Positions 2,639 to 64,000 of a DNA stretch of 64,000 nucleotides are shown here, one piece after another. Position 1 is the first letter of the stretch. The number at the start of each line of letters is the position of its first letter. Under the pieces are notes generated by a model, which had not been told where the DNA came from, searched no databases, and saw nothing but the letters and a program-made list of their open reading frames with translations. The translations under genes were made by a program, and so were the position numbers. This DNA comes from Actinomycetota bacterium (GTDB lineage: Bacteria > Actinomycetota > Geothermincolia > Fen-727 > Anoxymicrobiaceae): the NCBI GenBank assembly GCA_018896525.1, contig JAHIMR010000040.1, forward strand, positions 11,492 through 75,491. The letters are read 5' to 3'.

Positions 2639-2719
2639 ACACGCAACATTGTACCCGGTACAAAACGCAACATTCCTGCCAATTCCTGGTAAAGCGCAAA
2701 AGGTGACAGGCACCACAGG

Positions 2720-2748
2720 TTGATGTGCTTGTACTGCTGTGATATTCT
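2720..2748 (+). promoter_or_regulatory. Sigma-70-like promoter, TTGATG-17 nt-TATTCT, ending 9 nt before the comEA ATG. This suggests a leaderless or near-leaderless comEA transcript.
   Basis: Hexamers and spacer are read directly. No Shine-Dalgarno sits between the -10 and the ATG at 2758. Confidence 0.4.
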
Positions 2749-7124: not shown

Positions 7125-7197
7125 TATCACTTCCTTTTCTTGAGGGATTCTAGCACAGCGGTTATTTGATGTCGAACCTATTTTGTTTGGCGTTGTC

Positions 7198-7378
7198 GTG
7201 TGTAAGACGGGGGACAGGCCCGCTGATGCATAACGAGCATCGCTTGAGTGGTATAAACAACGACACCAGCTTGGGCCAGTCCCCGTTTGATTGACGGGGG
7301 ACAGGCCCGCCGTTGCATTATGGAGAGCGGTTTGGGTGGAGAGACGAACGCAACACCTGAGCCAGGCACCGTTTGGGT
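7198..7378. repeat. Mosaic repeat family B, copy 4. It has a tandem duplication of GACGGGGGACAGGCCCGC-YGWTGCATWA modules, then a GTTGCATTATGGAGAGCGGTTTGGGTGGAG...AACGCAACACCTGAGCCAGGCACC module.
   Basis: Shares 20-60-nt blocks with 54146-54410, 58809-58990 and 59625-59830 (e.g. CGTTGCATTA-GGAGA-CGGTTTG-GTGGAG, AACGCAACACCTGAGCCAGGCACC, TTGGGCCAG-CCCCGTTTG). It lies in the divergent rpsT / lepA intergenic region. Confidence 0.8.
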
Positions 7379-7382
7379 GGCG

Positions 7383-9239
7383 ATGGGGAGCGGCGGTGTT
7401 CCATCTGCTATGATACTTAGCCGGGAGGTGTACGCACTGGATTCGAGGAATATCAGGAACTTCTGCATAATCGCGCATATCGATCACGGGAAATCTACGC
7501 TGGCGGACCGGCTGATGGAGCAAACAGGTGCTATAGAGCCGGGTAGCGAGAACCCCCAGTTCCTGGACCGGATGGAGCTGGAGAGGGAGCGGGGGATAAC
7601 CATCAAGGCCCAGGCGGTCAGGCTTTCCTACCGGCGAGGGGAGACCGACTACGAGCTCAACCTCATCGACACTCCCGGCCACGTTGACTTCACCTACGAG
7701 GTATCCAGGACGCTTGCCGCCTGCGAGGGAGCGATACTGCTGGTGGACGCGGCACAGGGGGTGGAGGCGCAGACTATTGGAAACCTGCATCTGGCCGTAG
7801 ACAACGACCTGGTTGTCGTACCGGTAGTCAACAAGATCGATCTGTCCACCGCTGAGCCGGAGCGAGTCCGAGACGAGGTCATCGAGATACTTGGGGTGAG
7901 CCCGGAAGAAGTGCTCTTCTGCTCGGCGAAGACGGGAGAGGGCATTCGCGAGATGCTGGAGGCGGTAGCAGACAGGATCCCGCCACCCACCGGCTCTCCG
8001 GATGATGTGCTGAGGGCGCTGGTGTTCGATTCGTCGTATGACCCCTACAGGGGTGTCGTTTCCTTCATTCGGGTAGTGTCGGGCGTACTGTCCATGGGGA
8101 TGGACGTGAAGATGATGGGGGAGGGGAGCAGGGTCCAGGTGGAATCTCTTGGCTACCTTACCCCGGAGATGTATCCCGCCGACACTCTGGAGGCGGGTGA
8201 GGTCGGATTCGTCGCGACCGGGACCAAGGACGTATACAGGCTGGGCGTGGGTGATACCCTGACTTCTTTCACCGGCGGCGCCGAGTCACCGTTGCCCGGG
8301 TACAAGAGGCCCAAGCCGGTAGTGTTCGCCGGACTCTACCCGGTTGACAACAATGACCATGAGCAGCTCCGCAACGCGCTTGCCAGGCTCAGACTGAACG
8401 ATTCCGCCATCGATTACGAGCCGGAGAGCTCTCAAGCGCTGGGGTTCGGCTTCAGGTGCGGCTTTCTCGGGTTGCTTCACATGGACATCGTAAGGGAGAG
8501 ACTGGAGCGAGAGTACGACCTCGACCTCATAGTGACCGCGCCTAATGTGGTGTACCGGGTGACCGATAAGAAGAGCGACGTCTTCATGGTCAACAACCCC
8601 TCGGAGATGCCTCCCGCCAACCAGGTGTCAAAGGTGGAGGAGCCATACGTGTCGCTCCTCATAATCACGCCGGGGGATATGGTGGGGCCGGTGATGGACC
8701 TGTGCCAGCGCAGGCGCTGCACCTACAAGGACATGGTCTATATCTCCAGCAACAGGGTTGAGCTCTCTTACCACATGCCCCTGGCGGAGATGGTGATCGG
8801 ATTCTACGACCAGCTCAAGAGTAGCTCCCGCGGCTATGCGTCACTTGACTACGAACTGGAGGAGTTTCGTGAAGGCCCGCTTGTGAAGCTCGAGATACTG
8901 GTGCACGGGGAGGTCGTTGACGCCTTCTCCAGCATCGTACCGAGAGAGAGCGCGCCGAGAAGAGGGCGAGAGCTCGCGAAAGTACTGAAGGAAAAGATTC
9001 CCAGGCAGCTGTTCGAGTTAGCCATACAAGCGTCGGTGGGGGGACGGATCGTCGCCAGGGAAACGGTTCCCGCCAGGAAGAAGGACGTGACCTCAAAATG
9101 TTACGGCGGAGACATAACCCGCAAGCGCAAGCTATGGGAAAAGCAAAAGGCGGGAAAGAAAAGGATGAAGATGGTCGGCAGGGTGGAGATACCTCAGGAA
9201 GCGTTCGTGGCGATGATCACCACCGAAGATGGTTCATAA
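7383..9239 (+). CDS. lepA: Elongation factor 4 (LepA).
   Basis: RNFCIIAHIDHGKSTLADRL (G1), DTPGHVDF (G3), NKIDL (G4) and a LepA-specific C-terminal domain. The start is ambiguous: ATG 7383 (after GGGTGG), ATG 7410, or the ORF-track TTG at 7287, which lies inside the repeat. Confidence 0.9.
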   Translation: MGSGGVPSAMILSREVYALDSRNIRNFCIIAHIDHGKSTLADRLMEQTGAIEPGSENPQFLDRMELERERGITIKAQAVRLSYRRGETDYELNLIDTPGHVDFTYEVSRTLAACEGAILLVDAAQGVEAQTIGNLHLAVDNDLVVVPVVNKIDLSTAEPERVRDEVIEILGVSPEEVLFCSAKTGEGIREMLEAVADRIPPPTGSPDDVLRALVFDSSYDPYRGVVSFIRVVSGVLSMGMDVKMMGEGSRVQVESLGYLTPEMYPADTLEAGEVGFVATGTKDVYRLGVGDTLTSFTGGAESPLPGYKRPKPVVFAGLYPVDNNDHEQLRNALARLRLNDSAIDYEPESSQALGFGFRCGFLGLLHMDIVRERLEREYDLDLIVTAPNVVYRVTDKKSDVFMVNNPSEMPPANQVSKVEEPYVSLLIITPGDMVGPVMDLCQRRRCTYKDMVYISSNRVELSYHMPLAEMVIGFYDQLKSSSRGYASLDYELEEFREGPLVKLEILVHGEVVDAFSSIVPRESAPRRGRELAKVLKEKIPRQLFELAIQASVGGRIVARETVPARKKDVTSKCYGGDITRKRKLWEKQKAGKKRMKMVGRVEIPQEAFVAMITTEDGS

Positions 9240-23704: not shown

Positions 23705-23716
23705 TCCGGTCCGTTA

Positions 23717-23879: not shown

Positions 23880-23953
23880 TAGACTGTTTAGAAAGCGACG
23901 GACGTTCGGGCAGGTAAGGTCAATCGGGCGTATTCGAGGTTTTGAGGAACTCG

Positions 23954-26055: not shown

Positions 26056-26065
26056 CATGGGGAAT

Positions 26066-26460: not shown

Positions 26461-26463
26461 TAA

Positions 26464-28656: not shown

Positions 28657-28668
28657 AGATGGCTACTT

Positions 28669-28831: not shown

Positions 28832-28890
28832 TTGAATTCGCGACGCACACCTGCGGGTCATGAGTCAAGCCGGACGAACTCGAGTAAACG

Positions 28891-31255: not shown

Positions 31256-31370
31256 TAGTGTTTGTGATAGACAGGGACGATGTTTTAAAATGGACTGATT
31301 ATCGCCGAAGAGCGCGGTGAGTGACTCAAGCGATTCCAGCGGATAGAGGTTTGCGAGGGGGAACGGGTAG

Positions 31371-37545: not shown

Positions 37546-37608
37546 TACCGAGTCGTTCTCTCCTGTATTATACTAACCAGTGTCCGAATATGCCTTTCAT
37601 GTTCATAA

Positions 37609-37772
37609 GTGCCCCGTTCCATGAATACGGTTAAGCACCGAGAGCGTCGAAGCGCCACTCCGGCAAGGCGCGCGACCGAGTCGTACTCCTGGAGTACGTC
37701 GAGGGAGCGGAACGCAGTCGGTGTGGACGGGAGCGGCGTTCGAATGCCAGCGTATTTATGGAGCGGGGCACT
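37609..37772. repeat. Family A element, full length, reverse orientation.
   Basis: GTGCCCCGTTCCATGAATACGGTTAAGCACCGAGAGCGTCGAAGCGCC ... GTATTTATGGAGCGGGGCAC. Confidence 0.9.
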
Positions 37773-37904
37773 AAGAGCGAGCGTGAAGGACCAGATGACC
37801 GATAGTGATTTATCGAACAAACGAATAGGAAGCGTGGAATGCCCCAGAAGCGCGATTGCTGCGGTGGGAGGGGTATTGTCTTGATCTAGTGTCGGGAAAG
37901 GGCG

Positions 37905-41161: not shown

Positions 41162-41162
41162 T

Positions 41163-41319
41163 GCCACGCTCCATAAATACACTGGCATTCGAACGCCGCT
41201 GCATCCACACCGGCCGCGTTCCGCTCCCTCGGCGTACTACAGGAGTACGACTCGGTCGCGCGCCTTGCCGGAGCGGCGTCACGCTCTCGGTGCTTAACCG
41301 TATCTATGGAACGAGGCAG
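41163..41319. repeat. Family A element, full length. Its right terminus GGAACGAGGCAG supplies the Shine-Dalgarno for the next gene.
   Basis: TGCCACGCTCCATAAATACACTGGCATTCGAACGCC ... CGTACTACAGGAGTACGACTCGGTCGCGCGCC ... CGTATCTATGGAACGAGGCAG, then TAACTA and the ATG at 41326. Confidence 0.9.
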
Positions 41320-41325
41320 TAACTA

Positions 41326-43203: not shown

Positions 43204-43263
43204 GAACCGCGCGTCCCGGGCCAACCCCTCTCGTAACCGCGCCGCGGCCATGATCGCAACTAG

Positions 43264-43587
43264 TGCCCCGTCTCATAGAATACAATGGCATTCGAACGCC
43301 GCTGCATCCACACCGGCTGCGTTCCGCTCCCTCGAAGTACTACAGGAGTACGTTCTAGTGCCCCGCTCCATGGATACGCTGGCATTCGAACGCCGCCGCA
43401 TCCACACCGGCCGCGTTCCGCTCCCTCGACGTACTACAGGAGTACGTCTCAGTCGCGCGCCTTGCCGGAGCGGCGCTTCGACGCTCTCGGTGCTTAACCG
43501 TATCCATGGAACGGGGCACTTGGTCGCGCGCCTTGCCGGAGCGGCGCCACGCTCTCGGTGCGTCACCGTATTTATGAGACGGGACAC
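43264..43587. repeat. Family A array: left arm, then a full element, then an extra right arm (about 325 bp).
   Basis: GTGCCCCGTCTCATAGAATACAATGGCATTCGAACGCCGCTGCATCCACACCGGCTGCGTTCCGCTCCCTCGAAGTACTACAGGAGTACG + GTGCCCCGCTCCATGGATACG...CCATGGAACGGGGCAC + ...CGTATTTATGAGACGGGACAC. Confidence 0.9.
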
Positions 43588-43623
43588 TGGATCCCCGGGG
43601 CAATCACGGCGGAGAACGGTAAC

Positions 43624-49920: not shown

Positions 49921-50024
49921 TTCCGCTCCCGGAAAAACGGCCTTTCACTGCCCTTATGCTAACAGATACCCGGAACTGTCACAGTTCCCGTCCTGGTCTC
50001 CGAGCAACAACGGGCGGCCTATAG

Positions 50025-50350
50025 TGCCCCGTCTCACAAATACAATGGCATTCGAACGCCGCTGCATCCACACCGGCTGCGTTCCGCTCCCTCGAAGTAC
50101 TACAGGAGTACGTTTTAGTACCCCGCTCCATAAATACGCCGGCATTCGAACGCCGCTGCATCCACTCCGGCTGCGTTCCGCTCCCTCGAAGTACTCCAGA
50201 AGTACGTCTCGGTCGCGCGCCTTGCCGGAGCGGCGCTTCGACGCTCTCGGTGCTCAACCGTATCTATGGAACGGGGCACTGAGTCGCGCGCCTTGCCGGA
50301 GCGGCGCTTCGACGCTCTCGGTGCATCACAGTACTTATGAGACGGGACAC
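50025..50350. repeat. Family A array: left arm, then a full element, then an extra right arm.
   Basis: GTGCCCCGTCTCACAAATACAATGGC... + GTACCCCGCTCCATAAATACGCC... + ...GGTGCATCACAGTACTTATGAGACGGGACAC. Confidence 0.9.
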
Positions 50351-50456
50351 TGGTGATTTCCAACGAGGTCACAGTAGAATATAATCTCAGTGTATGTGAA
50401 CGTGATGCCCGTGTCTCCAGCGTAAAGGCGGGCAGCAAGCAAGGAAGGTGGTTGCG

Positions 50457-52718: not shown

Positions 52719-53732
52719 TTACTCAAGCGCTTGCCAGTTCCCGAGTTCGATTGCCTCGAGGTTTCTTACGCGTTCATCAATGGAGTGTCCCTCTTCATAG
52801 TGAACCACTAACTCCCCGCCGGGTTTCCGTATCTTTCCCCGTTCCTCTTTTCGTGCTGACTCAGGACCTGAATAGACCCTGCCACCAAGGAGGTTAGCGC
52901 TGTCCAGCTTGATCAGCGCGTTCTTGAGAGCGGCCGGGTTCCCGGTTATTTTCGACGCTATTGAATCGGTCAGTAACTCGTTGTGGAAACGTATCTGCCT
53001 CGACTTCCTCACCAGGAAAAAAACAATCACGACGAAGCAGAGGTAGTTGATGAACATAAGCAGGAACGAAAGCATGCCCATTCCAGCCTCAATCGTGAGG
53101 AACATCCCGAAGAAGGCAACCGCGATTGCCGGGAAAGCTAAAAGCCAAAGGTTATCCTGGTAACCGCGCCATGTAAGAAGATCGCCTGTAACCATGTGAG
53201 ACAGTCGTTCGGCCATTAGCGCGTCCGCTTCTTCGACGGAAATCGGCACCCACAGCACCTCCCGTGTAACCGCTACCACCGGCTTGTCTCGCGCTTTCAT
53301 GAACGCGAAGGCGGCAACGCCTTTGATATCCAGAACCATGAGTTCCGGTGGGCGAACCCCCAGGGCAATGCTCGCCCCTTCCAGGCCATTCCTGAACTTC
53401 CTCAACCACTCCTTATCCCCGATGTTAAGATTGCTTTTTACGATTAGAGGCACTCTCGATCGGGCTTTCTTGAGAACCTGGAGAACAACAAAAACAGTCG
53501 GCGTTCCAAACCCAAGGACGAATATTATCAAGGAAGCCCTCAGTTCGGCCGGTCCAAACCGGGACCGAACGAATTCGTCAGTTGACGAAGTACCGGTGCG
53601 ATACGCCCACAGGCATAACGCGATAGACGAAACCAGCGAAAACGCAAGTACTGCTACTATGAGTGACTTGAGCAGGAATACCTTTCTCTTGTGACGCGTG
53701 ATGCTTGCTATGACCTCGGGCTCAAGGTTCAC
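52719..53732 (-). CDS. Polytopic membrane protein of unknown function.
   Basis: 337 aa with at least 6 TM segments. No catalytic motif recognised. Confidence 0.5.
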   Translation of the reverse strand: MNLEPEVIASITRHKRKVFLLKSLIVAVLAFSLVSSIALCLWAYRTGTSSTDEFVRSRFGPAELRASLIIFVLGFGTPTVFVVLQVLKKARSRVPLIVKSNLNIGDKEWLRKFRNGLEGASIALGVRPPELMVLDIKGVAAFAFMKARDKPVVAVTREVLWVPISVEEADALMAERLSHMVTGDLLTWRGYQDNLWLLAFPAIAVAFFGMFLTIEAGMGMLSFLLMFINYLCFVVIVFFLVRKSRQIRFHNELLTDSIASKITGNPAALKNALIKLDSANLLGGRVYSGPESARKEERGKIRKPGGELVVHYEEGHSIDERVRNLEAIELGNWQALE

Positions 53733-54145
53733 GTTTACATCTCCCGGATTTTATTGGTACCGAAGTTCTTATAAGCCCCCGTATGCTTTCCCCTATACTA
53801 TGTGGAAAGCCCGCTGGTTGGCGAACATGCTGTTGAGTCAAGAAGACGTCCAGTACGCGCATAGCCACTAGCCGGGGTAGGGGAGGGGACGCTTTATCGT
53901 TCATCGACAGTTGTCTCGCTCAAGCGTATTCGTCCAGGACCGCGACTTCGATGTTTTCTTCTTACCGCGTTCCCTCCAGTAAGCCACCCCAGGCATTCTC
54001 AGAAACGCAAGATGGTACCCGGTACAAACGCAAGTTGTTTAGACGTAAAGTACTTGCAGAAGGGGCCAGGCCCCAAACGGAAGGTTGGGGGAGAAGTCTC
54101 CCTCGTAGCGCCGGCATCTTGCCGGCATCGCCTTTTGCAAGGTGT

Positions 54146-54410
54146 GACGCACTGGTGCCTGTCACCAGTGCGTCATTTTGTGGATATTGTTAATTATTGA
54201 GGGAGGAGTACCGCCCCTGGGCTGTTGCATAATGGGGCTTGGGTTTGGGTGGATGTTGCAACGGCACCAGCCCGGGGATGGCGTTCTTGTCTGACCGCCG
54301 CTTGTCTGAGATGAGGGGTCAGGCCTTCTAGCCGGAACGTTTACTCCAGGCCACCGCTTGAAGGCGCTGACCCCACCGGTTGGATTGGGCCAGACCCCGT
54401 TTGGGTGGGG
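54146..54410 (+). repeat. Repeat family B, copy 1. It begins with a perfect 12-bp hairpin GACGCACTGGTG-CCTGT-CACCAGTGCGTC plus ATTTTGTGG (terminator-like), then GAGGGAGG, GTTGCAT, GGGGATGGCG-TTCTTGTCTGACCGCCGCTTGT, GGGGTCAGG, GACCCCACC and TTGGGCCAGACCCCGTTTGGGTGG modules.
   Basis: About 180 nt align with copy 2 at 58809-58990 in the same orientation. Sub-blocks are shared with 7198-7378 and 59625-59830. Confidence 0.85.
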
Positions 54411-54678
54411 TAGTTGGTCTATTATAACAAGTTTACATAATATATATTATAGGACATTAGGATATACGTGAGTTTTGTACGTCTTCCAGCAGATTTGAGT
54501 TATCATATAAGAGCAGTAAAGATGGTTGAACGCGAATTGAATGCTAAAGAGTCAACGACCTCGGTGTTGTTGTTTTGGGTATTACTGAAGGGAAAACCAG
54601 CCGACTGATGTATCTGTCTTATGAGTCCGCCGCGCGGGTATTGATTGGAACCATGACGGGCAACGCCCGGGATACAGC

Positions 54679-57066
54679 ATGAAGATCAAGAAGCCCGAGA
54701 TGAATACGATGCGCCTCAAGCTTGTGCGTGAGATACTGAACGCCAAGGTGAGATTCATGGCTATCACCCTGGTGGTGGTAATCGGGGTGGCGATATTCAT
54801 CGCTTCATCGATGTCCTACCGTAACCTTGACACCTCCTACGAGTACACCTACGACCAGTTGAACTTCGCCGACTTCAGGGTCAAGGCCGACGATATACCC
54901 GGATACGTTGTGGAAAAGGCCGGGAAGGTGCCCGGCGTAACGATGGTCACCCCCAGGGCCAGGGCGGACAAACCGTTCATCATGACCGGAGGCAAGCACC
55001 TGGTGGGGCGGGTGACCGGCCTTCCATACGAGCAGCCGTTCGTCGACGACCTCATCATCAAGGAAGGAAGGTACTTCGAGCCTGGCGACTCGATGGTATG
55101 CATCGCCGAGTCGCATTTCGCCGGCTACTACGACGTTCACCCCGGGGACACAATCTACTACGACAGGAACGGCGCCGAGATTCCGGTGGAGATAATCGGC
55201 GTAGCCGGGAACCCCGAGTACCTGGTGCTTGCCGGCGAGAAAGGCGACTTCAGCCCCATACTGTCGGCTTCCGCCATGGCAATCCTGTGGATGCCCATCA
55301 GGGACGTACAGGAGATGACCCAGCTGCCCGACAGCTACAACCAGTTGCTGTTCAAGGTGGACAACCCCGAAAACATGGAACCGCAGATAGCCGCGGTTGA
55401 AGAGATAATGAAGTACACCGGCATCCAGAACATCATTACCCAGGACGAGCACCAGGGCAACGTGATGATGAAGGCGGACCTGGAGAGCTTCAAGAGCTTC
55501 GCCCTGTTTTTCCCACTCATGTTCCTTTTAATCGCCTGCTTCAGCATCTATATCCTATTGAGCAGGCTGGTCTACACCCAGAGGCCGTTCGTGGGCGTGA
55601 TGCGGGCTATCGGGTACACTAAGAAGCAGATATTGTTTCACTACCTGTCGTTCGCGCTGGTCATAGGGGTCCTGGGGGCATTTGTAGGCGCGGCCCTGGG
55701 GTACGTGTTGTCCTCCCTTATCACCAGCGTATACGCCGGTACCATGGGCATCCCGATGACAAAGATCAAGACGTACTGGTCGGTGATCTTCCAGGGGATG
55801 ACGCTCTCTATGGTGTTCTGCGCCATCGCCGGCATCATGCCGGCGATCCGCTCGGCCCGTCTGGACCCGTCCAAGGCGATGCGGGGAGAGACACTGGAGG
55901 TTGCCTACCGCCGCCCGCTGCTGGAGCGCGTCTTTCCCCCGATGTCACGTCTCCCTTTGTTCCTCAAGGTCCCGTTCAGGAACATGTCCCGGAACCGGCG
56001 GCGCACCGCGTTCACCATCATCGGGCTGGTGTTCTCGGTGATGATAGTGCTGGTGTTCCTGGCGACACTGGACACCGCCGCCGGCACCCTGGAGCGGGGT
56101 TTTCATTATAACAACCGATTCGACATGGTGGTCATGTTCCTGGGAGGGCGCGACGAAGCCCTCATCACCAAGATAAGGCGGGTTCACGGGGTTACCGACG
56201 TGGAGCCAACGTTGGGTTATAACTGCACCGTGGCCTGGGACGGCGACTCCGCCGAGACGGTAATGATGGGGATAATTCCCAGTACCCGGATGAAGTACTT
56301 CTATACCTCCGATGGGCAGCAGGTCAAGTTGACCGGGCGCCACGTCCTGATGAACCAGTGGTTCAACATGCAGAAGGGCCTGGAGGTGGGTGACACCGTC
56401 AACATCTCGACCGAGTATCGCGACAAGGACTTCATAGTGGGCGAGTTCATAGAGGAACCGATGGGAAACCTCATCTACATCCCGGCAGGCGAGGCCCGGG
56501 AGTTACTTGCCTACGGGATGGGCAGCAGGGGCGCTTTCTACGTAAAGACGAAACCGGGCGCCTATACGGAGGTCCGGAACGAGCTGCAGGAGTTCCCCGG
56601 CATGGCGGCGATAATCGACCTGGAGGAGATAAAGCGGGAGATAGAGTCGTACATGTCCCTTCTCTACATTATCGTGTACGTGATGCTGGCGTTCGCCCTG
56701 GTGATGGCGTTCACCCTTACCTTCAACACCGTAACCATCAACATACTGGAGCGGGAGCGGGAGATAGCCACGATCCGTACGATCGGTACCGAGTCGTGGA
56801 AGATATCGGCGATGACCACCATGGAGAACGTTATCTTCGGCCTCCTGTCCATAATCCCCGGGATAATCCTGGGGGTTATGGTGGGACGGTACGCCATGAG
56901 CCTGCAGCAGACCGACTACTTCTCGATGACCCTGGAGGTGTCCGCGAGAAGTTACATCCTGGTCTCGGTGGGCATCATCGTCATCCTGATACTCTGCCAG
57001 ATACCCTCGCTTCAGTACGTAAAACGGGTGCATCTCGCGGAGGCCACCAAGGAGAGGGGCGGTTAG
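54679..57066 (+). CDS. FtsX-family (MacB/LolCE-like) ABC-transporter permease with two 4-TM FtsX modules and two large extracytoplasmic domains; no ATPase gene adjacent.
   Basis: 795 aa. Two repeats of an extracellular domain followed by 3 TM helices, ending LSLQYV...; typical DUF214/FtsX topology. Confidence 0.75.
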   Translation: MKIKKPEMNTMRLKLVREILNAKVRFMAITLVVVIGVAIFIASSMSYRNLDTSYEYTYDQLNFADFRVKADDIPGYVVEKAGKVPGVTMVTPRARADKPFIMTGGKHLVGRVTGLPYEQPFVDDLIIKEGRYFEPGDSMVCIAESHFAGYYDVHPGDTIYYDRNGAEIPVEIIGVAGNPEYLVLAGEKGDFSPILSASAMAILWMPIRDVQEMTQLPDSYNQLLFKVDNPENMEPQIAAVEEIMKYTGIQNIITQDEHQGNVMMKADLESFKSFALFFPLMFLLIACFSIYILLSRLVYTQRPFVGVMRAIGYTKKQILFHYLSFALVIGVLGAFVGAALGYVLSSLITSVYAGTMGIPMTKIKTYWSVIFQGMTLSMVFCAIAGIMPAIRSARLDPSKAMRGETLEVAYRRPLLERVFPPMSRLPLFLKVPFRNMSRNRRRTAFTIIGLVFSVMIVLVFLATLDTAAGTLERGFHYNNRFDMVVMFLGGRDEALITKIRRVHGVTDVEPTLGYNCTVAWDGDSAETVMMGIIPSTRMKYFYTSDGQQVKLTGRHVLMNQWFNMQKGLEVGDTVNISTEYRDKDFIVGEFIEEPMGNLIYIPAGEARELLAYGMGSRGAFYVKTKPGAYTEVRNELQEFPGMAAIIDLEEIKREIESYMSLLYIIVYVMLAFALVMAFTLTFNTVTINILEREREIATIRTIGTESWKISAMTTMENVIFGLLSIIPGIILGVMVGRYAMSLQQTDYFSMTLEVSARSYILVSVGIIVILILCQIPSLQYVKRVHLAEATKERGG

Positions 57067-57148
57067 CCCTCTCCCCTACCCCGGAAAGCGACTACCGGTT
57101 GTTTCCCGTTCTGCTATACTCACCGGAAAGTTATAAAGTAGGAAGAGC

Positions 57149-58810
57149 ATGCAGGGAAAAAACCGAAGCATAAGAGTGCGGGGCGGACGCGCGTCATGTC
57201 TGATCATCGCTTTTGTGATTACGATTTCGCTTGTATCTCTCCCCGCGCACTCAATGGATAACCCGGATGTCAGTTTCTACCTCTCATCGAACAACGATGA
57301 CCCTCATGTGGTTGACGTGATGTTGAGCTTTAAGCTCGACAGTGGAGAATCCGCCATCTTAGAGCCACCCGACCAGTGCAACGTCAACGACGGGAGCGGT
57401 GACGTTCTCACGGTGGACGTTCCGCTGGAGCAAAACCCTGAGTTTGTAGTCGAGGCTTTAGAGTCCCCGGATATCAGTTGGAGGGTTACCGCCGTGAACT
57501 CAGGCGTGGTTTCATTGCCTTACCACGTCCGTTACTCGACCACGAAAGCCCCGCAGAGCACCGTAGAGGGCCCTGGAGCACCGGTCCGTCAAAGGTGTAT
57601 AGCCGAGGCCGACCTCAAGGCTTTCATCGGCTCAGATCTCTTTATCTGCCCTCGTAGCAGTGAAGACGGCTCGCTCCTGGGAAAAGAGTACTCTGTTGAG
57701 ATTACCCTGGAGTCCGGGGAGAAGGCGCTTGTCCCCTGGGAAAACGATGGCGACGACGGGTCTTTCATTATCAAGGGGGCAATACCTCTTCTCGAGAACA
57801 TTGTCTGCTGGGGCCGCCTCGACATAAGGACGCTCAAGAAGGAAAAACCGGAGATAGTAGCCGGGTTCTCCGAAGAGTATAAGAAGCTCACTGATGACCA
57901 GAAGGAGGCCTACGGCGAGAACCTCGTTTCCCTGTACGACAAGCTGGCTGATGTCCTTGGCCAGCGGCCTGAGCTCGAGCGCCTTACAGTACTTTTCGAC
58001 GGGGCGGGGCGTTTCGGGCTCACGGAGCCGGACTCCATGACGATGTTTGGTTCGATGGCGGTCTTTCACGGTGGCAGCAAGCTCGAGGGCAAAGCAGCCG
58101 CCGTCGCGGCCAGGGGGCTCTTCGGGCTATGGAACCGGTGGGCGTTCGTGCCCGCTCCTGAGAGCGAGGCCGGCTGGTTCCAGCAGGGGGTACCCTGGTT
58201 CTACCCGTACCGGTGCGCGGGACAGGCCGGCCTCCTGGACGCCGGGATGGCGTTCGAGGAGTTCTCCATGGTCCACGCCGCCTACCTTTCGAACCCACTG
58301 TCGCTCTCCACTTCCCTGGTCGAGGCGGAGAACGAGGCGAACAGCGACGGCCTCGTTGCCGGCAAGGGAGCCGCGCTCTGCGCCGCGATCGCCCGCAGGC
58401 TTTTCGATGAGTCCAACGGCAAGAAGGACATCGAATGGTTGCTGGGCGAGATATCCGAAAGGTTCGACCACTTCCAGGGCAAAGAGTACGAACTGGTGGA
58501 TATCACCGAGCTATGCGAGGAGGCCACCGGCAGTAGCTGGGACCGTTTCTTCACTGAACGAGTGAGAGGCGAGGATGTCATTGGTGCCAATGAGTTCTCC
58601 ACCACCGACCTGTTCGGCACGACCACGATCGCCGGCACGCAGGTTGAACTCAACGAGGAAGGGTCAGGCAATAGCTGGATGTTCCTCCTGGTCGCGGTTG
58701 CGGTCATACTTCTGATACCGATTATCTTCAGCACCTACGTCAAGCGCTCGATCAGGCTGGATGTCCAGATGCCCGGGATACTCCTGAACGATGACGACGG
58801 GGATGAATGA
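57149..58810 (+). CDS. Exported protein of unknown function with an N-terminal signal anchor and a C-terminal TM anchor.
   Basis: N-terminus CLIIAFVITISLVSLPAHS and C-terminus WMFLLVAVAVILLIPIIFSTYVKRS. 553 aa, no recognisable catalytic motif. Confidence 0.55.
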   Translation: MQGKNRSIRVRGGRASCLIIAFVITISLVSLPAHSMDNPDVSFYLSSNNDDPHVVDVMLSFKLDSGESAILEPPDQCNVNDGSGDVLTVDVPLEQNPEFVVEALESPDISWRVTAVNSGVVSLPYHVRYSTTKAPQSTVEGPGAPVRQRCIAEADLKAFIGSDLFICPRSSEDGSLLGKEYSVEITLESGEKALVPWENDGDDGSFIIKGAIPLLENIVCWGRLDIRTLKKEKPEIVAGFSEEYKKLTDDQKEAYGENLVSLYDKLADVLGQRPELERLTVLFDGAGRFGLTEPDSMTMFGSMAVFHGGSKLEGKAAAVAARGLFGLWNRWAFVPAPESEAGWFQQGVPWFYPYRCAGQAGLLDAGMAFEEFSMVHAAYLSNPLSLSTSLVEAENEANSDGLVAGKGAALCAAIARRLFDESNGKKDIEWLLGEISERFDHFQGKEYELVDITELCEEATGSSWDRFFTERVRGEDVIGANEFSTTDLFGTTTIAGTQVELNEEGSGNSWMFLLVAVAVILLIPIIFSTYVKRSIRLDVQMPGILLNDDDGDE

Positions 58811-58990
58811 CGCACTGGTGCCTGGCACCAGTGCGTCATTTTGTGGCTTTTGTTTATTTGTGAGGGAGGGGTTTCGCCCCGGGGATGGCGGTTCTTGTCT
58901 GACCGCCGCTTGTGTGACAGAAAGGGGTCAGGTGTACTAACCCCAACGCTGGTGGGTTTGCCAGTCCCCTAACACCTGACCCCACCAATT
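58809..58990 (+). repeat. Repeat family B, copy 2. The hairpin GACGCACTGGTG-CCTGG-CACCAGTGCGTC plus ATTTTGTGG overlaps the TGA stop of the 553-aa gene and acts as its intrinsic terminator. It is followed by ~150 nt homologous to copy 1, minus a 50-nt GTTGCAT module.
   Basis: Direct alignment with 54146-54410. Confidence 0.85.
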
Positions 58991-59600: not shown

Positions 59601-59624
59601 TTTAACCACTGCTTGCTTGGCGTG

Positions 59625-59830
59625 GGTGGGGTCTCGCCCTGGGGCTGTTGCATAGTGGGGTGTTGGTTTGGGTAAAGTGTCCAACGGCAACAGCCCGGGG
59701 ATGGCGGGTTTTGTCTTGCGTTATCGCGTATAGACGTGGTGCCAGGCACCTGCGTTGCATTAAGGAGAACGGTTTGTGTGGAGGTTTCAACGGCAACACC
59801 TGAGCCAGGCACCTTCGGGTGGCCTTTAGG
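59625..59830. repeat. Repeat family B, copy 3 (GTTGCAT module X, then GGGGATGGCGGG, then GGTGCCAGGCACC palindrome, then module Y GTTGCATTAAGGAGAACGGTTTGTGTGGAGG...AACGGCAACACCTGAGCCAGGCACC).
   Basis: Module X matches 54218-54270. Module Y matches 7309-7372 at about 80% identity. Confidence 0.8.
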
Positions 59831-60277: not shown

Positions 60278-60520
60278 TCAGCCGGCGTGATTGGCGATCT
60301 CGGTGGGCCTTGGGACATGACAGCGCCAGGACTGCATGACCGCTCCGTCATCGTCCACCAGCACCATCGATGGCGTACACAGCACACTGTGGAACGCCGC
60401 CTCTGCCAGGCCATCAGCCTTGTCCATGTTGAACATCTTGCTGAACGTGAACTGTCTCGCCACCTCCTTCGCCGCCGGGCAGTTAGGACAATCTTCCTTC
60501 ACGAACACCTTGAGTACCAT
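60278..60520 (-). CDS. Glutaredoxin-like / NrdH-like small redoxin (thioredoxin fold, CPNC active site).
   Basis: MVLKVFVKEDCPNCPAAKEV..., 80 aa. Lies between nrdD and dut. Confidence 0.7.
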   Translation of the reverse strand: MVLKVFVKEDCPNCPAAKEVARQFTFSKMFNMDKADGLAEAAFHSVLCTPSMVLVDDDGAVMQSWRCHVPRPTEIANHAG

Positions 60521-63500
60521 CCAGCTTCCCCCCTATAAGTGACGTACGCTTCCGCTCATTGAGCTCACCCAATTTTCCCTTGTTCCATGTCGATATCTTG
60601 GAGTAATACCCGACAATGCGGGTTACGCCGTAGGTGTCCTTAGACCCGCAAAGGGGACACTCCTCGGACAGGCCCCGGCTGGTTCTGCTGCACGCGTTAC
60701 ACACGGTGAACTCGGGGCTGAAAGCTATCTGTGCCGCGTTTGTTTCCTCGAACGTTTTCACCACGAACTTCCGTATCGACGCCGGCGGTGGCTCGTGCTC
60801 ACCAAGCCAGATATGGATAATCGCGCCGGCCTTGATGAGCGGGTGGAAAAGGCTCTGTTTCTTGACCCTGTCGATGTAATCGATGGGCGCGTCGTAAGCC
60901 ATGTGCACGCTGTTAGTGTAGTAGTAGTTGTCAATCTCGATGTCCCCCTTGACCACCTCCCGGGCCTGGCTGGGGAAGTACTTCATATCCAGCTTCGCCA
61001 GCCGGTATCCGCTTGACTCCGCGGGGGACTCCTCCAGCACCATGCTGATTCCGTACTTCTCCGAAAGCCGCTCGCAGACCAGGCTCATGTGGGCCACCAC
61101 CTTGAGCCCGAACCTCAGGGAATCACTGGACTGGTGCAACTGCTCGCCGGTGTGGTGCTGAACCATCTCGTTCAGTCCCAGGAGGCCGACCAGGTATGTC
61201 AGCCGGTTAAGCCGCAGGTACGTCTCTCCATCGTGCTCCATGGTGAGAAGCGAAACAGGCCCGTCGCGCCCAAGCTCCATCAGACTGAGGATGAACTTCT
61301 TCTTCTGCAGATGCGCCCTCGCCACCATCTCCATGGTCTTCTCGATCTCGCTGAACAGCATCTCCTCGCTGCCGTGCGCGCGGTAAGCTATGCGGGGCAG
61401 GTTCAGGGTGATGTTTTGCATGGCGGTGAATCGCATCTTCTCGGGGGTGAGCGCCTCCTGGAGGTCCACCTCGTCAAGCCTGAGCTTCAGCCGGCAGCAC
61501 TGTGATACCGTGATCTCGTCTCCCCGGTCATATACAAAGTAGGTGATTCCCTGCTTACTGGCTACCTCACAGGCCAGGTCCAGGAACTCCTCCCAGCCCT
61601 CGGTCTTGAAGAAGTCGTCGTTTATGTGGAGGAGCGGCTTGGGGAACACAAACGTCTTCCCCATGGCGTCCCCCTCCATATAGATCTCGAAAAGGGCCTT
61701 CAGGAACGACTGTGCTTCCTTCTCGTATTCACTGTAGGGCTTGCCCGTCGGCTCCCCGCCGGGGCCTATCGCCGGCGCGTCCTTGAGGTGCCTGGGTACG
61801 TTCCAGTAGAGGTTGAAATCAGTGAACACGACCTGGCTGTTATGCGCGAAAATGCCCTCTGCGGTCAGGAAGTTCTCGGTTTTTTCAACGCCTATATCGT
61901 ATACGAATTCATCGTTTTCAATAGGTTCAATCCCTGTGACAGTAGCTGGCAGCAGGTTGGTCGCCCTCTCCAGCGAATCCCTCAGCGCGGCCATCTCCTG
62001 GTTCTGGTGCAGCGCCAACCCCAGCCCGTGCTTGAGCATATTCAAGTTACTGTCAAGCTGGCGTGAATCGAAGAACGATTGTGAGTGGTTAATCCCCGAT
62101 CCGGGATTGATAGCCCGGGGGATCGAGAGGGCATCCATGACCTCTTTCATCTCCACTTGCTCATGGCAAGTACCCTTCAGCACTTCGTCGGTCCTTATGT
62201 GGGTGCTGTGAACGGGGACCTCGCCCCGTTCCAACTGCCGTAGTAGCCCGTATGAAGTCGAGTAGCACAGCTCCTTGTTGCCGAGGACGTACTCCTTGCA
62301 GACACCAACTAAATCCTCGTCATGAAGGTTCTTGAGCAACTCCATGTCGACTGTGGATAGTCGCCTGGAAACCTCGGCGCTCAGTTCCTTTATCGTTTGC
62401 GGAGATACCTTGTTCAGCGCCTTGACCGATATCCTATCGCCGAAAACGGACTTAACCTGCTCTCTTATGTGATGATATGAATAGCCTTTCTGGTCGTAGC
62501 GCTTCCCCGGTTTTCTGATAGCCGCTAGCCTCTTACCTTCCTTTTCCCGGTGCACGAACCTCACCTTGTCCATGGCCGTCTTTCCGATAGTTATGACGTG
62601 TCGCGTCTTGGTCTCCGCTACCGCGACCCCCTTGATCTCGAGGTCGTTCTCGATCTCTTCCTTCCTCATGCTGGGCATGCATCCCAGCTGGCTGAACATC
62701 AGCCAGACGTGAGACGCCAGCGTTTCCGAAACCGTCGAGCATCCAATCCTGTTGCCGGAGACCCATCCATCACCGGACAGGTAAGCGGAAAGGAACTCGA
62801 CCGCCCTCCCGCCATCACCCAGTAGTATCTCCGCGGGGACTCGCTTGTTCTCGGCGCGTTTTCCGCAAAGAGCCTCAAACAGCGCTACATGCGTCTTCCC
62901 CCCGAAGAAGCAGCTTCCGTCCCGGTGGTGGCAGGGAACTCCGAACACCGCCCGAACGCAATCCTCGACGTCCCGGGCCGTTTGCTCGTGGAATATCGCC
63001 AGCTGAACCTGGGACCCAAGGCTACCTTCAGCCACGTAGTAACCAATGAGGCGGGTTAACTCGGGTGTGATCTTCAATAAACGGTCAACGCCAAGCTTGC
63101 TCCTGGCCTTCTCGACCACAAAAACCAGCCCGTCCTCAAGAGCGACCTCCCGCCGGTCCAGTAGCGCGAGTACGTCTATCTCCTCCCGGCCAAGGTCGAT
63201 GCCTATGTTGTTGGGCACCAGGACCACGTCGGGATTCTCCTTTGGTTGCGCTTTCACTATCCGTCCATCCTCGTCAAACTTGAAAAGGGAGTGGTTGTCG
63301 GTCACCTTGACGTTCTGCCCCTGCGAGGTCTTCAGGTTGACTATCCGGTGGTTATTCTCATGGCGAATAGCGGCGTAAATCCTCGACAGGCATGTTTGCC
63401 CCGTATCGTGGTCGAAACTGAACGCGTAGTACCGGTCATCCTCAACCGGAGCGGTGGCTTCCCCCTCCCGCTGGATGAAGGAATCGGCGAACTCCCCGAT

Positions 63501-64000
63501 CTCAACCAGCTTTACTTGGTTTTCCTGCTTGTCGTAGATGAATACTCTCTCGTCCCTCCGAAGCGAGCCCCTGGCGCCGGCGAGCTGGTTGAATTCGAAG
63601 ATGAGCATCTCCGCCAGTTGCCGGATCCTCTTATAGGGCAGCCCCACCAGGAATGGGGCGAAGAACACGTTAACCGCCTCCCAACCGATTGCTCCCGCGT
63701 AATATGATTGCAGTGTGGAGGCCATCTTGACCATGTGGCCAATCAGCACATCCGGGTGGCGTGCCGGGCTTGATGTGCTGGTGATGTTGGGCAGGCGCAA
63801 CCCGAACTTCTTGACGTACTCCAGGCTGTGCCCTCCGCAATATGGCCGGACACAGAACCCCAGGTCATGCAGGTGTATGTCGCCCTCATAGTGGGCACGG
63901 GCTATATCATCGGAGAATATCCGCTGAAGCGCGTACTGCTTGAGTACCGTCTCGGCTATTGTCAGGTTTATCGACTCGGGATTATGGGTGGTGTTGCTGT
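60483..64000 (-). CDS. nrdD: Anaerobic ribonucleoside-triphosphate reductase NrdD (class III, glycyl-radical enzyme) interrupted by an intein. The 5' end runs off the window.
   Basis: The reading frame is open to nt 64000 (upstream translation ...HYEGDIHLHDLGFCVRPYCGGHSLEYVKKFGL...). C-terminus C4 zinc site CNACS...CPLCG and glycyl-radical motif TRIVGYYSK. The extein total is about 600 aa, which fits NrdD. Confidence 0.85.
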   Translation of the reverse strand, partial: SNTTHNPESINLTIAETVLKQYALQRIFSDDIARAHYEGDIHLHDLGFCVRPYCGGHSLEYVKKFGLRLPNITSTSSPARHPDVLIGHMVKMASTLQSYYAGAIGWEAVNVFFAPFLVGLPYKRIRQLAEMLIFEFNQLAGARGSLRRDERVFIYDKQENQVKLVEIGEFADSFIQREGEATAPVEDDRYYAFSFDHDTGQTCLSRIYAAIRHENNHRIVNLKTSQGQNVKVTDNHSLFKFDEDGRIVKAQPKENPDVVLVPNNIGIDLGREEIDVLALLDRREVALEDGLVFVVEKARSKLGVDRLLKITPELTRLIGYYVAEGSLGSQVQLAIFHEQTARDVEDCVRAVFGVPCHHRDGSCFFGGKTHVALFEALCGKRAENKRVPAEILLGDGGRAVEFLSAYLSGDGWVSGNRIGCSTVSETLASHVWLMFSQLGCMPSMRKEEIENDLEIKGVAVAETKTRHVITIGKTAMDKVRFVHREKEGKRLAAIRKPGKRYDQKGYSYHHIREQVKSVFGDRISVKALNKVSPQTIKELSAEVSRRLSTVDMELLKNLHDEDLVGVCKEYVLGNKELCYSTSYGLLRQLERGEVPVHSTHIRTDEVLKGTCHEQVEMKEVMDALSIPRAINPGSGINHSQSFFDSRQLDSNLNMLKHGLGLALHQNQEMAALRDSLERATNLLPATVTGIEPIENDEFVYDIGVEKTENFLTAEGIFAHNSQVVFTDFNLYWNVPRHLKDAPAIGPGGEPTGKPYSEYEKEAQSFLKALFEIYMEGDAMGKTFVFPKPLLHINDDFFKTEGWEEFLDLACEVASKQGITYFVYDRGDEITVSQCCRLKLRLDEVDLQEALTPEKMRFTAMQNITLNLPRIAYRAHGSEEMLFSEIEKTMEMVARAHLQKKKFILSLMELGRDGPVSLLTMEHDGETYLRLNRLTYLVGLLGLNEMVQHHTGEQLHQSSDSLRFGLKVVAHMSLVCERLSEKYGISMVLEESPAESSGYRLAKLDMKYFPSQAREVVKGDIEIDNYYYTNSVHMAYDAPIDYIDRVKKQSLFHPLIKAGAIIHIWLGEHEPPPASIRKFVVKTFEETNAAQIAFSPEFTVCNACSRTSRGLSEECPLCGSKDTYGVTRIVGYYSKISTWNKGKLGELNERKRTSLIGGKLDGTQGVREGRLS
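61839..63566 (-). mobile_element. Intein (576 aa) with a LAGLIDADG homing-endonuclease domain, inserted in nrdD. The N-terminal nucleophile is Ser and the C-terminus is ...FAHN followed by Ser +1.
   Basis: Block A SLRRDERVFIYDKQENQVKLVEIGEF; block B VKVTDNHSLF; LAGLIDADG 1 LIGYYVAEGSLG; LAGLIDADG 2 LSAYLSGDGWVS; blocks F/G VYDIGVEKTENFLTAEGIFAHN|S. Boundaries inferred from these motifs. Confidence 0.8.

What the first reader, a model, noticed from the sequence alone, without database searches (positions are those of the whole stretch)
54146..58990. Second mosaic repeat family (B): ~180-bp direct repeats with perfect 12-bp hairpin terminators bracket a 4.6-kb FtsX-permease / exported-protein cassette
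- Copy 1 (54146-54410) and copy 2 (58809-58990) share the same orientation. Both begin with the hairpin GACGCACTGGTG-CCTG(T/G)-CACCAGTGCGTC-ATTTTGTGG.
- They align over about 150 further nt: GAGGGAGG ... GGGGATGGCG-TTCTTGTCTGACCGCCGCTTGT ... GGGGTCAGG ... GACCCCACC.
- Copy 2 lacks a 50-nt GTTGCAT module that copy 1 has. That module recurs in copies 3 (59625-59830) and 4 (7198-7378), which also share a related AACG-CAACACCTGAGCCAGGCACC module.
- The copy 2 hairpin overlaps the TGA of the 553-aa gene. The identical hairpin in copy 1 sits in what is now a 5' leader, 500 nt upstream of the permease.
- The two bracketed genes are an FtsX permease without an ATPase partner, and an exported protein with N- and C-terminal anchors and no recognisable domain. 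Both are preceded by an AT-rich (30% GC) promoter region.
Altogether the cassette looks like a recombination or insertion cassette.
Basis: seen in the sequence. Interest (0 to 1): 0.6.

Follow-up and report, generated by a model that had tools for sequence, protein, structure and literature searches.

The report
Lineage-wide modular intergenic repeats, not a cassette
The two hairpin-bearing repeats around the permease and exported-protein genes are ordinary members of a many-copy, modular intergenic repeat family found only in one uncultured Actinomycetota lineage, and the two genes are an old, fixed part of the chromosome rather than an inserted cassette.

Summary
The repeats are real. Copy 1 and copy 2 share 80 nt at 86% and 71 nt at 83%, including a perfect 12-bp hairpin. 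The GTTGCAT module recurs in copies 3 and 4.

They are not a matched pair bracketing a cassette.
- The same modules occur dozens of times elsewhere: 10 strict S-module matches on 8 contigs of one related MAG, and 52 distinct T-module instances in four metagenome data sets.
- Copy 1 is a canonical H-T-S composite of about 245 nt, preceded by three more family modules, so the array spans 54003-54413.
- Copy 2 is the same composite with the T core deleted. It resembles copies at unrelated loci more than it resembles copy 1.
- The permease and 553-aa genes sit next to DUF3786-dUTPase-NrdD in five related genomes, down to 62% protein identity, with different repeat modules or none.

Arrays favour gene 3' ends: 21 convergent against 4 divergent sites. 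In co-directional gene pairs they mostly lie opposite to the genes, so the U-tracts do not follow the hairpins on the transcript (19 against 6).

Best reading: a lineage-specific mosaic repeat family of the BIME/BOX kind, whose H module is a terminator-type hairpin. Its means of spread is unknown. It is a new member of a known kind and of modest interest.

The parts
54003..54089 (+). Modules K and Q, the upstream part of the copy-1 array. K is AAACGCAAGAT-GGTACCCGGTAC-AAACGCAAG. Q is TTGTTTAGACGTAAAGTACTTGCAG..GGCCAGGCCCCAAACG.
   Evidence: BLAST matches to L062, L061, L023, L055 and L036 at 81-92%. A small K-like site also lies at window 2641-2670.
54096..54143 (+). Module P: TCTCCCTCGTAGC, the hairpin GCCGGCA-TCT-TGCCGGC (54110-54126), then ATCGCCTTTTGC.
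   Evidence: 88-97% matches over 25-35 nt, 17 matches in 15 loci (L020, L030, L037, L039, L049, L056, L058 and others).
54146..54199 (+). Module H, copy 1: a 12-bp hairpin at 54146-54174 plus the T-rich tail ATTTTGTGGATATTGTTAATTATT.
   Evidence: -24.8 kcal/mol, z -4.7. It belongs to the H family with the invariant apex GGTGCCWGGCACC.
54200..54284 (+). G-rich leader GAGGGAGG plus module T. The T core is at 54226-54271, flanked by CCCCTGGGCTGTTGC / GCACCAGCCCGGGG.
   Evidence: There are 52 distinct T instances in related contigs.
54285..54413 (+). Module S and a 3' tail. S has the small hairpin GGCG..CCGCC, then CGCTTGTCTGA, then the long hairpin GGGGTCAGG...CTGACCCC at 54315-54375. The tail is TTGGGCCAGACCCCGTTTGGGTGGGGTAG.
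   Evidence: (z -2.5). The tail also lies directly upstream of the AT-rich box in L066.
54432..54457 (+). Invariant AT-rich box TTTACATAATATATATTATAGGACAT, a promoter/operator candidate for the permease operon. It is not part of the repeat family.
   Evidence: Identical in the window, L007, L008, L009, L066 and L067, at 212-248 nt upstream of the permease ATG.
54679..57066 (+). 795-aa permease with two MacB_PCD + FtsX units. No ABC ATPase gene is nearby.
   Evidence: Pfam PF02687 at 5e-34 and PF12704 at 8e-18. The gene lists of the relatives show no ABC_tran neighbour.
57149..58810 (+). 553-aa protein with a membrane anchor at each end and no known domain. Its stop codon is supplied by the H hairpin.
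   Evidence: No Pfam, NCBIfam or PDB match. Eight homologues, all in this lineage. It lacks the roughly 22-aa acidic tail kept by P0001-P0004.
58809..58867 (+). Module H, copy 2: hairpin at 58809-58837 plus the tail ATTTTGTGGCTTTTGTTTATTTGT.
   Evidence: -29.9 kcal/mol, z -6.8. 98.4% identical to L039 over 62 nt and 92.7% to L056 over 82 nt.
58868..58890 (+). G-rich leader plus a collapsed T stem (GCCCC|GGGGATGGCG). The T core is deleted.
   Evidence: The only T-less junction among all loci. Alignment A8.
58891..58986 (+). Module S, copy 2, with a 12-bp hairpin GGGGTCAGGTGT...ACACCTGACCCC at 58924-58983. It ends 8 nt before the stop codon of the convergent DUF3786 gene.
   Evidence: z -2.9. 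An orthologous S abuts the DUF3786 stop in L067 and L008.
59611..59827 (+). Copy 3: leader + T (core 59649-59694), U linker, then T' (GGTGCCAGGCACC...core 59756-59800...GAGCCAGGCACC-TTCG-GGTGGC). It lies between dUTPase and DUF3786, opposite in orientation to both genes.
   Evidence: The site is empty in L007 (18-nt spacer). L008 holds an S module there instead.
7181..7387 (+). Copy 4: two tandem T-type units (cores 7227-7270 and about 7314-7357) with GGGGACAGGCCC / GGGCCAGTCCCC flanks. It lies between rpsT (-, 6861-7124) and lepA (+).
2641..2720 (+). A small K/Q-like family-B site directly after a stop codon.
   Evidence: 90% over 30 nt to 54005-54033. Sequence read.

Best explanation
Family B is a lineage-specific, multi-copy family of non-coding, modular intergenic repeats in an uncultured Actinomycetota lineage.

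It has at least six module types:
- K and Q.
- P.
- H, a hairpin with an invariant GGTGCCWGGCACC apex and a T-rich tail.
- T and its variant T'.
- U.
- S.

The modules are strung head to tail in one orientation. A recurrent H-T-S composite is about 245 nt long.

The elements spread and are reshuffled at the DNA level, by an unknown transposition-like or recombination-based route. They accumulate where they do least harm: at gene 3' ends, and inside operons in the orientation in which the hairpins are not followed by U-tracts. In the other orientation the H module, and more weakly the T and S modules, is a GC-rich hairpin plus T-run, so it most likely acts as an intrinsic terminator.

In the window, copy 1 is a full K-Q-P-H-T-S array upstream of the permease promoter. 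Copy 2 is an H-(T-deleted)-S element. It replaced the last ~22 codons of the 553-aa gene, supplies that gene's stop codon, and is probably its terminator. The two copies are independent members of the family.

The permease/553-aa pair is an ancestral, vertically inherited gene pair.

Shown: the copies, the modules, the synteny, the presence/absence differences and the orientation bias. Inferred: mobility, terminator activity and selection against polar insertions.
For: Dispersal:
- The strict S pattern gives 10 matches on 8 contigs of one MAG, JAHIPE01, the only one of 185,579 species genomes with a match.
- The strict T pattern gives 46 loci and 52 distinct instances in four metagenome sets.
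- Full H-T-S composites occur at L054 (84.6% over 247 nt), L037, L060 and L030, with unrelated flanks.
- S units form tandem arrays with periods of 97-103 nt.

Synteny of the gene pair.

Turnover at orthologous sites:
- The dUTPase-DUF3786 spacer holds T-U-T' in the window, S in L008 and nothing in L007.
- The spacer between the 553-aa gene and DUF3786 holds H-deltaT-S in the window, T-S in L067, T-U in L066 and nothing in L009.
- Truncation of the 553-aa C-terminus begins exactly at the H boundary.

Placement:
- 21 convergent against 4 divergent sites, p 0.0009.
- In co-directional gene pairs, 19 opposite to the genes against 6 in the same direction, p 0.015.

Module properties:
- H helix: 95.5% of cells paired; 9 of 14 pairs carry compensatory changes; z -4.7 to -6.8; terminator-like by scan.
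- T: indels of 1-2 nt in the core rule out coding. G.T and A.C mismatches are equal, 17 against 15, so no single strand looks selected for RNA folding.

No match in Rfam, plasmids or phages, or the literature.
Against: - No target-site duplication, terminal inverted repeat of the composite, or linked transposase was found. Mobility therefore rests only on distribution and presence/absence.
- No complete genome was available. The copy number per genome, of order 100, is an extrapolation from contig densities.
- The H instances used for the covariation count were chosen partly for having long stems, which inflates the paired fraction.
- My gene calls were home-made. They missed rpsT and over-extended DUF3786, so individual orientation assignments contain errors.
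- Two of the four window copies lie in divergent (promoter) regions, the class that is rare elsewhere.
- Terminator activity is untested.
Confidence: 0.75

Rival explanations
1. One reading: the two direct repeats are the ends of a 4.6-kb insertion or recombination cassette carrying the permease and the exported protein.
For: - Direct repeats of 80 nt at 86% flank the two genes.
- The region immediately upstream, between the AsnC-type regulator gene and the permease, differs between relatives: an HtpX-like gene in the window, a PIN/MazE pair in L007 and L008, and no gene in L067.
- A 1.8-kb stretch holding only the 553-aa gene is 100% identical in a second context, L002.
Against: - The gene pair is at the same chromosomal site in five relatives, down to 62% identity. 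L009 has no repeats at all there.
- Copy 2 is more similar to copies at other loci than to copy 1.
- The repeats belong to a family with dozens of copies next to housekeeping genes such as dUTPase, rpsT and lepA.
- No integrase or transposase appears among the Pfam-annotated genes from 47 to 68.8 kb.
Confidence: 0.03
2. The modules are primarily functional RNA elements kept by selection at each site, such as terminators, 3'-UTR stabilisers or small RNAs, rather than selfish or neutral DNA repeats.
For: - Placement is strongly non-random, at gene 3' ends and with an orientation bias.
- H has compensatory stem changes and a T-run.
- S stems differ between subfamilies by paired changes, GCCTT/AAGGC against GTGTT/AACAC.
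- The unpaired T-core nucleotides TTGGGTGG and CAACGGCA are highly conserved.
Against: - Modules differ or are missing at orthologous sites in close relatives.
- T is no more stable than shuffled sequence, z -0.6 and +0.75.
- The T stem shows little covariation and no G.U against A.C asymmetry.
- RNAalifold finds no consensus fold.
- No Rfam family matches.
- The orientation bias is equally explained by purging of polar insertions.
Confidence: 0.15
3. A simple local duplication: copy 2 was copied from copy 1, or the reverse, within this locus.
For: The two copies are 4.66 kb apart, in the same orientation, and share the same H stem variant, GACGCACT.
Against: - The same H variant with its tail occurs at L039 (98.4%), L056 (92.7%) and L054 on other contigs.
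- The S stems of the two copies belong to different subfamilies, GCCTTC against GTGT.
Confidence: 0.02

Closest known systems
Bacterial interspersed mosaic elements (BIMEs) of Escherichia coli, built from REP/PU units plus other short motifs
   Same: They are extragenic and assembled from several short motif types in variable combinations. They form hairpins, are present in many copies, and are often found at the 3' ends of genes or between genes of an operon. (My knowledge of BIMEs; the matching features here are.)
   Different: - There is no sequence similarity.
- BIME palindromic units alternate in orientation, whereas family-B modules are all head to tail in one orientation.
- The modules here are longer, 30-100 nt.
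- The host is an uncultured actinomycete lineage.
BOX elements of Streptococcus pneumoniae (boxA-boxB(n)-boxC)
   Same: They are ordered modular composites of about 100-300 nt, with modules that can be missing or repeated. They are intergenic, number dozens to hundreds of copies, and have a stable predicted secondary structure. (My knowledge of BOX; compare the H-T-S, H-deltaT-S and T-U-T' forms.)
   Different: The sequences and host phylum are different. There are more module types here. One module (H) is a terminator-type hairpin with a conserved palindromic apex and covarying stem.
REP/REPIN elements with their RAYT transposase
   Same: They are short hairpin-forming extragenic repeats that are abundant within a single lineage.
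   Different: There is no conserved GTAG-type 5' tetranucleotide and no inverted doublets. The lower stem of H varies between copies rather than being conserved. No RAYT gene could be looked for because no complete genome was available.
Miniature inverted-repeat transposable elements such as Correia/NEMIS of Neisseria
   Same: They are small non-coding dispersed elements that can carry terminators and alter neighbouring gene ends. Here, copy 2 truncates the 553-aa gene.
   Different: The H-T-S composite has no terminal inverted repeats, and no target-site duplication was detected.
Mycobacterial interspersed repetitive units (MIRUs)
   Same: The host phylum is the same. They are intergenic, have units of 50-100 nt that form short tandem arrays, and have a fixed orientation. 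Compare the S arrays with periods of 97-103 nt.
   Different: There is no sequence relation. MIRUs contain small ORFs coupled to the flanking genes, whereas family-B modules have frame-breaking indels.

Membership tests
Integron-type or other repeat-bounded gene cassette | The bounded gene block is variably present at the site among related genomes. | tested here: not met
   The permease/553-aa pair sits next to DUF3786-dUTPase-NrdD in L007, L008, L009 and L067.
Integron-type or other repeat-bounded gene cassette | A site-specific recombinase (IntI or another) lies nearby, and the boundary repeats are attC-like with conserved RYYYAAC/GTTRRRY cores. | tested here: not met
   No recombinase appears among the Pfam-annotated genes from 47 to 68.8 kb. 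The element ends TGACGCAC... and ...CCCCACCNGTTGG carry no conserved core pair. The rest of the window was not scanned with Pfam.
Interspersed mosaic intergenic repeats (BIME/BOX kind; a descriptive class) | Many dispersed extragenic copies in one genome or lineage. | tested here: met
   10 S matches on 8 contigs of one MAG. 52 distinct T instances. Five sites in the window.
Interspersed mosaic intergenic repeats (BIME/BOX kind; a descriptive class) | Built from several distinct motifs combined in variable number and order. | tested here: met
   Modules K, Q, P, H, T, T', U and S occur in different combinations. One copy has the T core deleted. Tandem S units and T stubs also occur.
Interspersed mosaic intergenic repeats (BIME/BOX kind; a descriptive class) | Sequence homology to the named E. 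coli or pneumococcal elements. | tested here: inconclusive
   Not compared directly. No E. coli genome search was run, and the Rfam and plasmid/phage searches, which found nothing, do not hold these elements. The resemblance is of kind only.
MITE | Terminal inverted repeats at the ends of the element. | tested here: not met
   The composite ends TGACGCACTGG... and ...CTGACCCCACCGGTTGG are not inverted copies of each other. The individual modules are internally palindromic.
MITE | A target-site duplication flanking the insertion. | tested here: inconclusive
   None was seen in filled against empty sites or across seven aligned copies. No clean empty-site/filled-site pair was available.
MITE | A related autonomous element encoding the transposase. 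| not testable with these tools
   No complete genome of the lineage was accessible. Only loci around the matches were fetched.
REP/REPIN-RAYT | A conserved 5' tetranucleotide plus a conserved imperfect palindrome, arranged as inverted doublets. | tested here: not met
   H stems vary between copies and start with ATGAC or ATGCG. The modules are in direct orientation.
Intrinsic (Rho-independent) terminator (H module only) | A GC-rich stem-loop directly followed by a T/U-tract. | tested here: met
   A 12-17 bp stem followed by ATTTTGTGGCTTTTG. The T-run follows the hairpin on one side only.
Intrinsic (Rho-independent) terminator (H module only) | Transcripts end at the element. | not testable with these tools
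   No transcriptome data. Copy 2 follows a co-oriented gene. Copy 1 follows no + strand gene.
Any described RNA family (Rfam 15) | A covariance-model score at or above the gathering threshold. | tested here: not met
   No matches at gathering thresholds in the window. Permissive scans gave only chance-level hits, E 0.28-3.

The most novel reading that the evidence does not exclude
The T core is about 45 nt, nearly invariant in its unpaired TTGGGTGG and CAACGGCA stretches but hypervariable in a 9-12-nt window. Together with the invariant GGTGCCWGGCACC apex of H, it could be a recognition site or a small RNA of a so far undescribed mobile or DNA-processing system specific to this actinomycete lineage. 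On that reading the arrays would record its activity rather than being passive BIME-like repeats.
Probability: 0.1. Interest if true: 0.6.

Novelty: new member of a known kind. Interest (0 to 1): 0.3.

Why it matters
It removes a false lead: there is no mobile permease cassette here.

It also documents an undescribed modular repeat family, alongside a second family A, in an uncultured anaerobic Actinomycetota lineage. These repeats:
- break metagenome assemblies; several contigs end inside them;
- can create chimeric or recombinant contigs (L002);
- reshape gene ends, as in the truncated 553-aa protein;
- probably supply terminators.

Knowing the modules helps with binning, annotation and strain comparison for this lineage. 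For bacterial genome biology in general the phenomenon is familiar.

Tried and rejected
- RNAalifold on 51 T instances gave only a trivial 5-pair stem with no covariation. A hand-drawn 14-pair T stem is 86% paired but barely covaries and has no G.U/A.C asymmetry. I therefore dropped the idea that T is a selected RNA fold.
- L002 first looked like a related strain with an "empty" S site. It is a mosaic: bases 1-890 are 99-100% identical to the L008 species, 890-2722 are 100% identical to the window, and the rest is unrelated. I did not use it as evidence of insertion.
- I looked for target-site duplications at the dUTPase-DUF3786 site and across aligned H-T-S copies. None was found.
- The T core was read as a promoter or a small ORF. 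The hexamer spacing does not fit, and indels break the reading frame (by reading the sequences).
- The AlphaFold model of the 553-aa protein from 9 sequences has mean pLDDT 52, too poor for a fold search. The PDB sequence search gave only chance hits.
- Literature search for the motif strings found nothing relevant. BLAST against plasmids and phages found no match.
Full report
**1. The observation**

- Copy 1 and copy 2 share 80 nt at 86% (54145-54224 against 58808-58887) and 71 nt at 83% (54271-54339 against 58878-58948). Both are in the same orientation.
- Both begin with the perfect 12-bp hairpin GACGCACTGGTG-CCTGK-CACCAGTGCGTC followed by ATTTTGTGG. The hairpins fold at -24.8 and -29.9 kcal/mol, z -4.7 and -6.8.
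- Copy 2 lacks the GTTGCAT core. That core occurs five times in the window, always on the + strand.
- Copies 3 and 4 share the CAACACCTGAGCCAGGCACC module.
- The 553-aa ORF ends in the TGA that overlaps the copy-2 hairpin.

Three details need correcting.
- Copy 1 really starts near 54003, because 54003-54145 consists of three more modules that recur at many other loci.
- Only the permease gene has an AT-rich upstream stretch: 29% GC at 54414-54520, against 52% GC in the spacer before the 553-aa gene.
- Copy 1 lies upstream of a strongly conserved promoter/operator-like box, so it is probably not in the permease leader. This is inference.

**2. Where the window comes from**

- The window is part of an 81-kb ENA metagenome contig.
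- The 553-aa protein has only eight homologues in 5.8 billion proteins.
- One of them is from an NCBI MAG labelled Actinobacteria bacterium. The only species genome that holds the S module is also labelled Actinomycetota bacterium.

**3. The gene pair is not a cassette**

- The contigs encoding the homologues show the same order: permease, 553-aa homologue, DUF3786, dUTPase, small ORF, NrdD, NrdR, HflX. This holds in L007 (83% identity), L008 (74%) and L009 (62%). The shorter contig L067 (85%) reaches the 3' end of DUF3786.
- L009 has no family-B sequence on either side. Its 553-aa homologue overlaps the end of DUF3786.
- What does vary is the stretch upstream of the repeat array. The window has an HtpX-like gene there, L007 and L008 have a PIN/MazE pair, and L067 has no gene there.

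**4. The repeats are a large modular family**

- A strict pattern for module S found 10 matches on 8 contigs of one MAG, and in no other of 185,579 species genomes.
- A strict pattern for the T core found 46 loci and 52 distinct instances in four metagenome data sets.
- Reading their flanks shows a recurrent grammar:
  - optional K, Q and P modules;
  - an H hairpin with the invariant palindromic apex GGTGCCWGGCACC and a T-rich tail;
  - a G-rich leader, GAGGGAGGGGTC;
  - the T unit;
  - then either S, or a U linker plus a T' unit.
- A full H-T-S composite of about 245 nt with unrelated flanks is found at L054 (84.6% over 247 nt to copy 1), L037, L060 and L030.
- S units also form short tandem arrays with periods of 97-103 nt.
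- Copy 1 is therefore a K-Q-P-H-T-S array.
- Copy 2 is an H-S element whose T core has been deleted at the base of its stem. It is the only such junction seen.
- Copy 2 is closer to copies on other contigs than to copy 1: 98.4% to L039 and 92.7% to L056, against 86%. The two flanking copies have no special relationship to each other.

**5. Turnover**

Orthologous spacers hold different modules in different relatives.

| Spacer | Window | Relatives |
|---|---|---|
| dUTPase-DUF3786 | T-U-T' | S in L008; an 18-nt empty spacer in L007 |
| 553-aa gene-DUF3786 | H-deltaT-S | T-S in L067; T-U in L066; T-S after an extra acetyltransferase gene in L008; nothing in L009 |

- The window's 553-aa protein ends exactly where H begins. 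It lacks the roughly 22-residue acidic tail kept by its four closest homologues.
- The DNA diverges from L066 right after GACGACGGGGAT. The element therefore replaced the end of the gene and supplies its stop codon.

**6. Placement and orientation**

I used a self-trained codon-usage gene caller on all loci. It is imperfect: it missed rpsT and over-extended DUF3786.
- Arrays lie in 21 convergent against 4 divergent spacers (p 0.0009). The background in these loci is 50 convergent against 39 divergent spacers.
- In co-directional gene pairs, 19 arrays are opposite in orientation to the genes and 6 are in the same orientation (p 0.015).
- In the + orientation each module is a GC-rich hairpin followed by a T-run. 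The simplest reading is that insertions that would terminate transcription inside operons are removed by selection, while those at operon ends are tolerated or useful. This step is inference.

**7. Structure tests**

- H: a 14-pair helix is 95.5% paired over 16 instances, and 9 pairs carry compensatory changes. No shuffle or slid control comes close. The caveat is that I picked instances largely for their long stems.
- S: the hairpins are moderately more stable than shuffles, z -2.5 and -2.9. They differ between subfamilies by paired substitutions.
- T: conserved mainly as sequence.
  - Its fold is no better than shuffles, z -0.6 and +0.75.
  - The consensus fold is trivial.
  - The outer stem hardly covaries.
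  - G.T and A.C mismatches are equally frequent, 17 against 15. Neither strand looks selected as RNA.
- There are no Rfam matches, no plasmid or phage matches, and no literature on the motifs.

**8. Mechanism and classification**

- Most likely (0.75) these are DNA-level interspersed mosaic repeats of the BIME/BOX kind, specific to this lineage. H acts as a terminator-type hairpin.
- How they spread is unknown. I found no terminal inverted repeats of the composite, no target duplication and no linked enzyme.
- The defining features of integron cassettes, MITEs and REP/REPIN elements were tested and not met, or could not be tested. The family is filed only under the descriptive class of mosaic intergenic repeats.
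- An RNA-function-first explanation keeps about 0.15. The cassette and local-duplication ideas are effectively excluded.

**9. Verdict**

The cassette interpretation is wrong. The family is a new member of a well-known kind. Interest is 0.3.

The most novel reading left open, at probability about 0.1, is that the conserved T core and H apex are sites or RNAs of an undescribed lineage-specific mobile system.

Noticed in passing
window 54432-54457; also L007 7283, L008 3264, L009 7278, L066 196, L067 4227: A 26-nt AT-rich box, TTTACATAATATATATTATAGGACAT, contains the perfect 14-bp palindrome ATAATATATATTAT. It is 100% identical in six genomes whose neighbouring 553-aa proteins are as low as 62% identical. 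It always lies 212-248 nt upstream of the permease start. It is a likely operator/promoter.
   Followed up: partly
window 54575-54682 (or from the ATG at 54608): A small upstream ORF of 24-35 codons has a stop that overlaps the permease start (ATGA). Its peptide ..ITEGKTxRLMNLSYESAARxLIxTxxGNARDxA is conserved in the window, L007 and L067, and more loosely in L008 and L066. It may be a leader peptide or a small subunit.
   Followed up: partly
L002 (ERZ27247110 contig) against window 56151-58872; Logan contigs L003-L006: - The 1.8-kb stretch 57040-58848, which holds only the 553-aa gene, is 100% identical in L002.
- To its left, L002 is 99-100% identical to the L008 species and only about 80% identical to the window. 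To its right it continues into unrelated radical-SAM and TiaS genes.
- Four Logan assemblies break at the same two points.
- This is either a recent recombinant or an assembly chimera. The joins are a 43-nt conserved stretch and the H repeat.
   Followed up: partly
window 3412-3523, 10364-10535, 11710-11767, 13047-13142, 14029-14192, 23713-23882, 26065-26464, 28664-28836, 30924-31258, 37607-37775, 41158-41322, 43260-43591, 50019-50351: A second, more abundant repeat family (family A) has units of about 95 nt, often in tandem and in both orientations. It occupies at least 13 intergenic sites in the window. It is also present in 22-28 segments of the related metagenome and MAG loci.
   Followed up: no
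window 52719-53732 (-): A distant HtpX-like membrane protein gene (best NCBIfam E 9e-10, far below the family cut-off) is present between the AsnC-type regulator and the permease only in the window lineage. L007 and L008 have a PIN/MazE toxin-antitoxin pair there, and L067 has no gene. This is the truly variable spot of the locus.
   Followed up: partly
window 60483-64000 (-) and beyond (L001 13335-17228): The anaerobic ribonucleotide reductase NrdD carries an intein with a LAGLIDADG domain and is 1297 aa long. L007 and L009 have intein-free NrdD of 721 and 735 aa. L008 has a 1736-aa version with two intein hits.
   Followed up: no
window 54679-58810 and the orthologous loci: The duplicated MacB/FtsX-type permease (795 aa) is always paired with the double-anchored, domain-less 553-aa protein. 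It is never next to an ABC ATPase gene in any of the relatives. The 553-aa family has only eight members in the protein database. Its AlphaFold model is confident only for an N-terminal beta-rich domain, residues 41-222.
   Followed up: partly
L034 about 4170-4290, L047 about 7090-7160, L065 about 2035-2075: Sub-module stutters occur within the family:
- tandem 17-nt T stubs, GCCCCGGGCTGTTGCAT, repeated 4 times;
- repeated half-hairpins, CACCAGGCATCATTTTGT, repeated 4 times.
They suggest replication slippage or repeated partial insertion within arrays.
   Followed up: no
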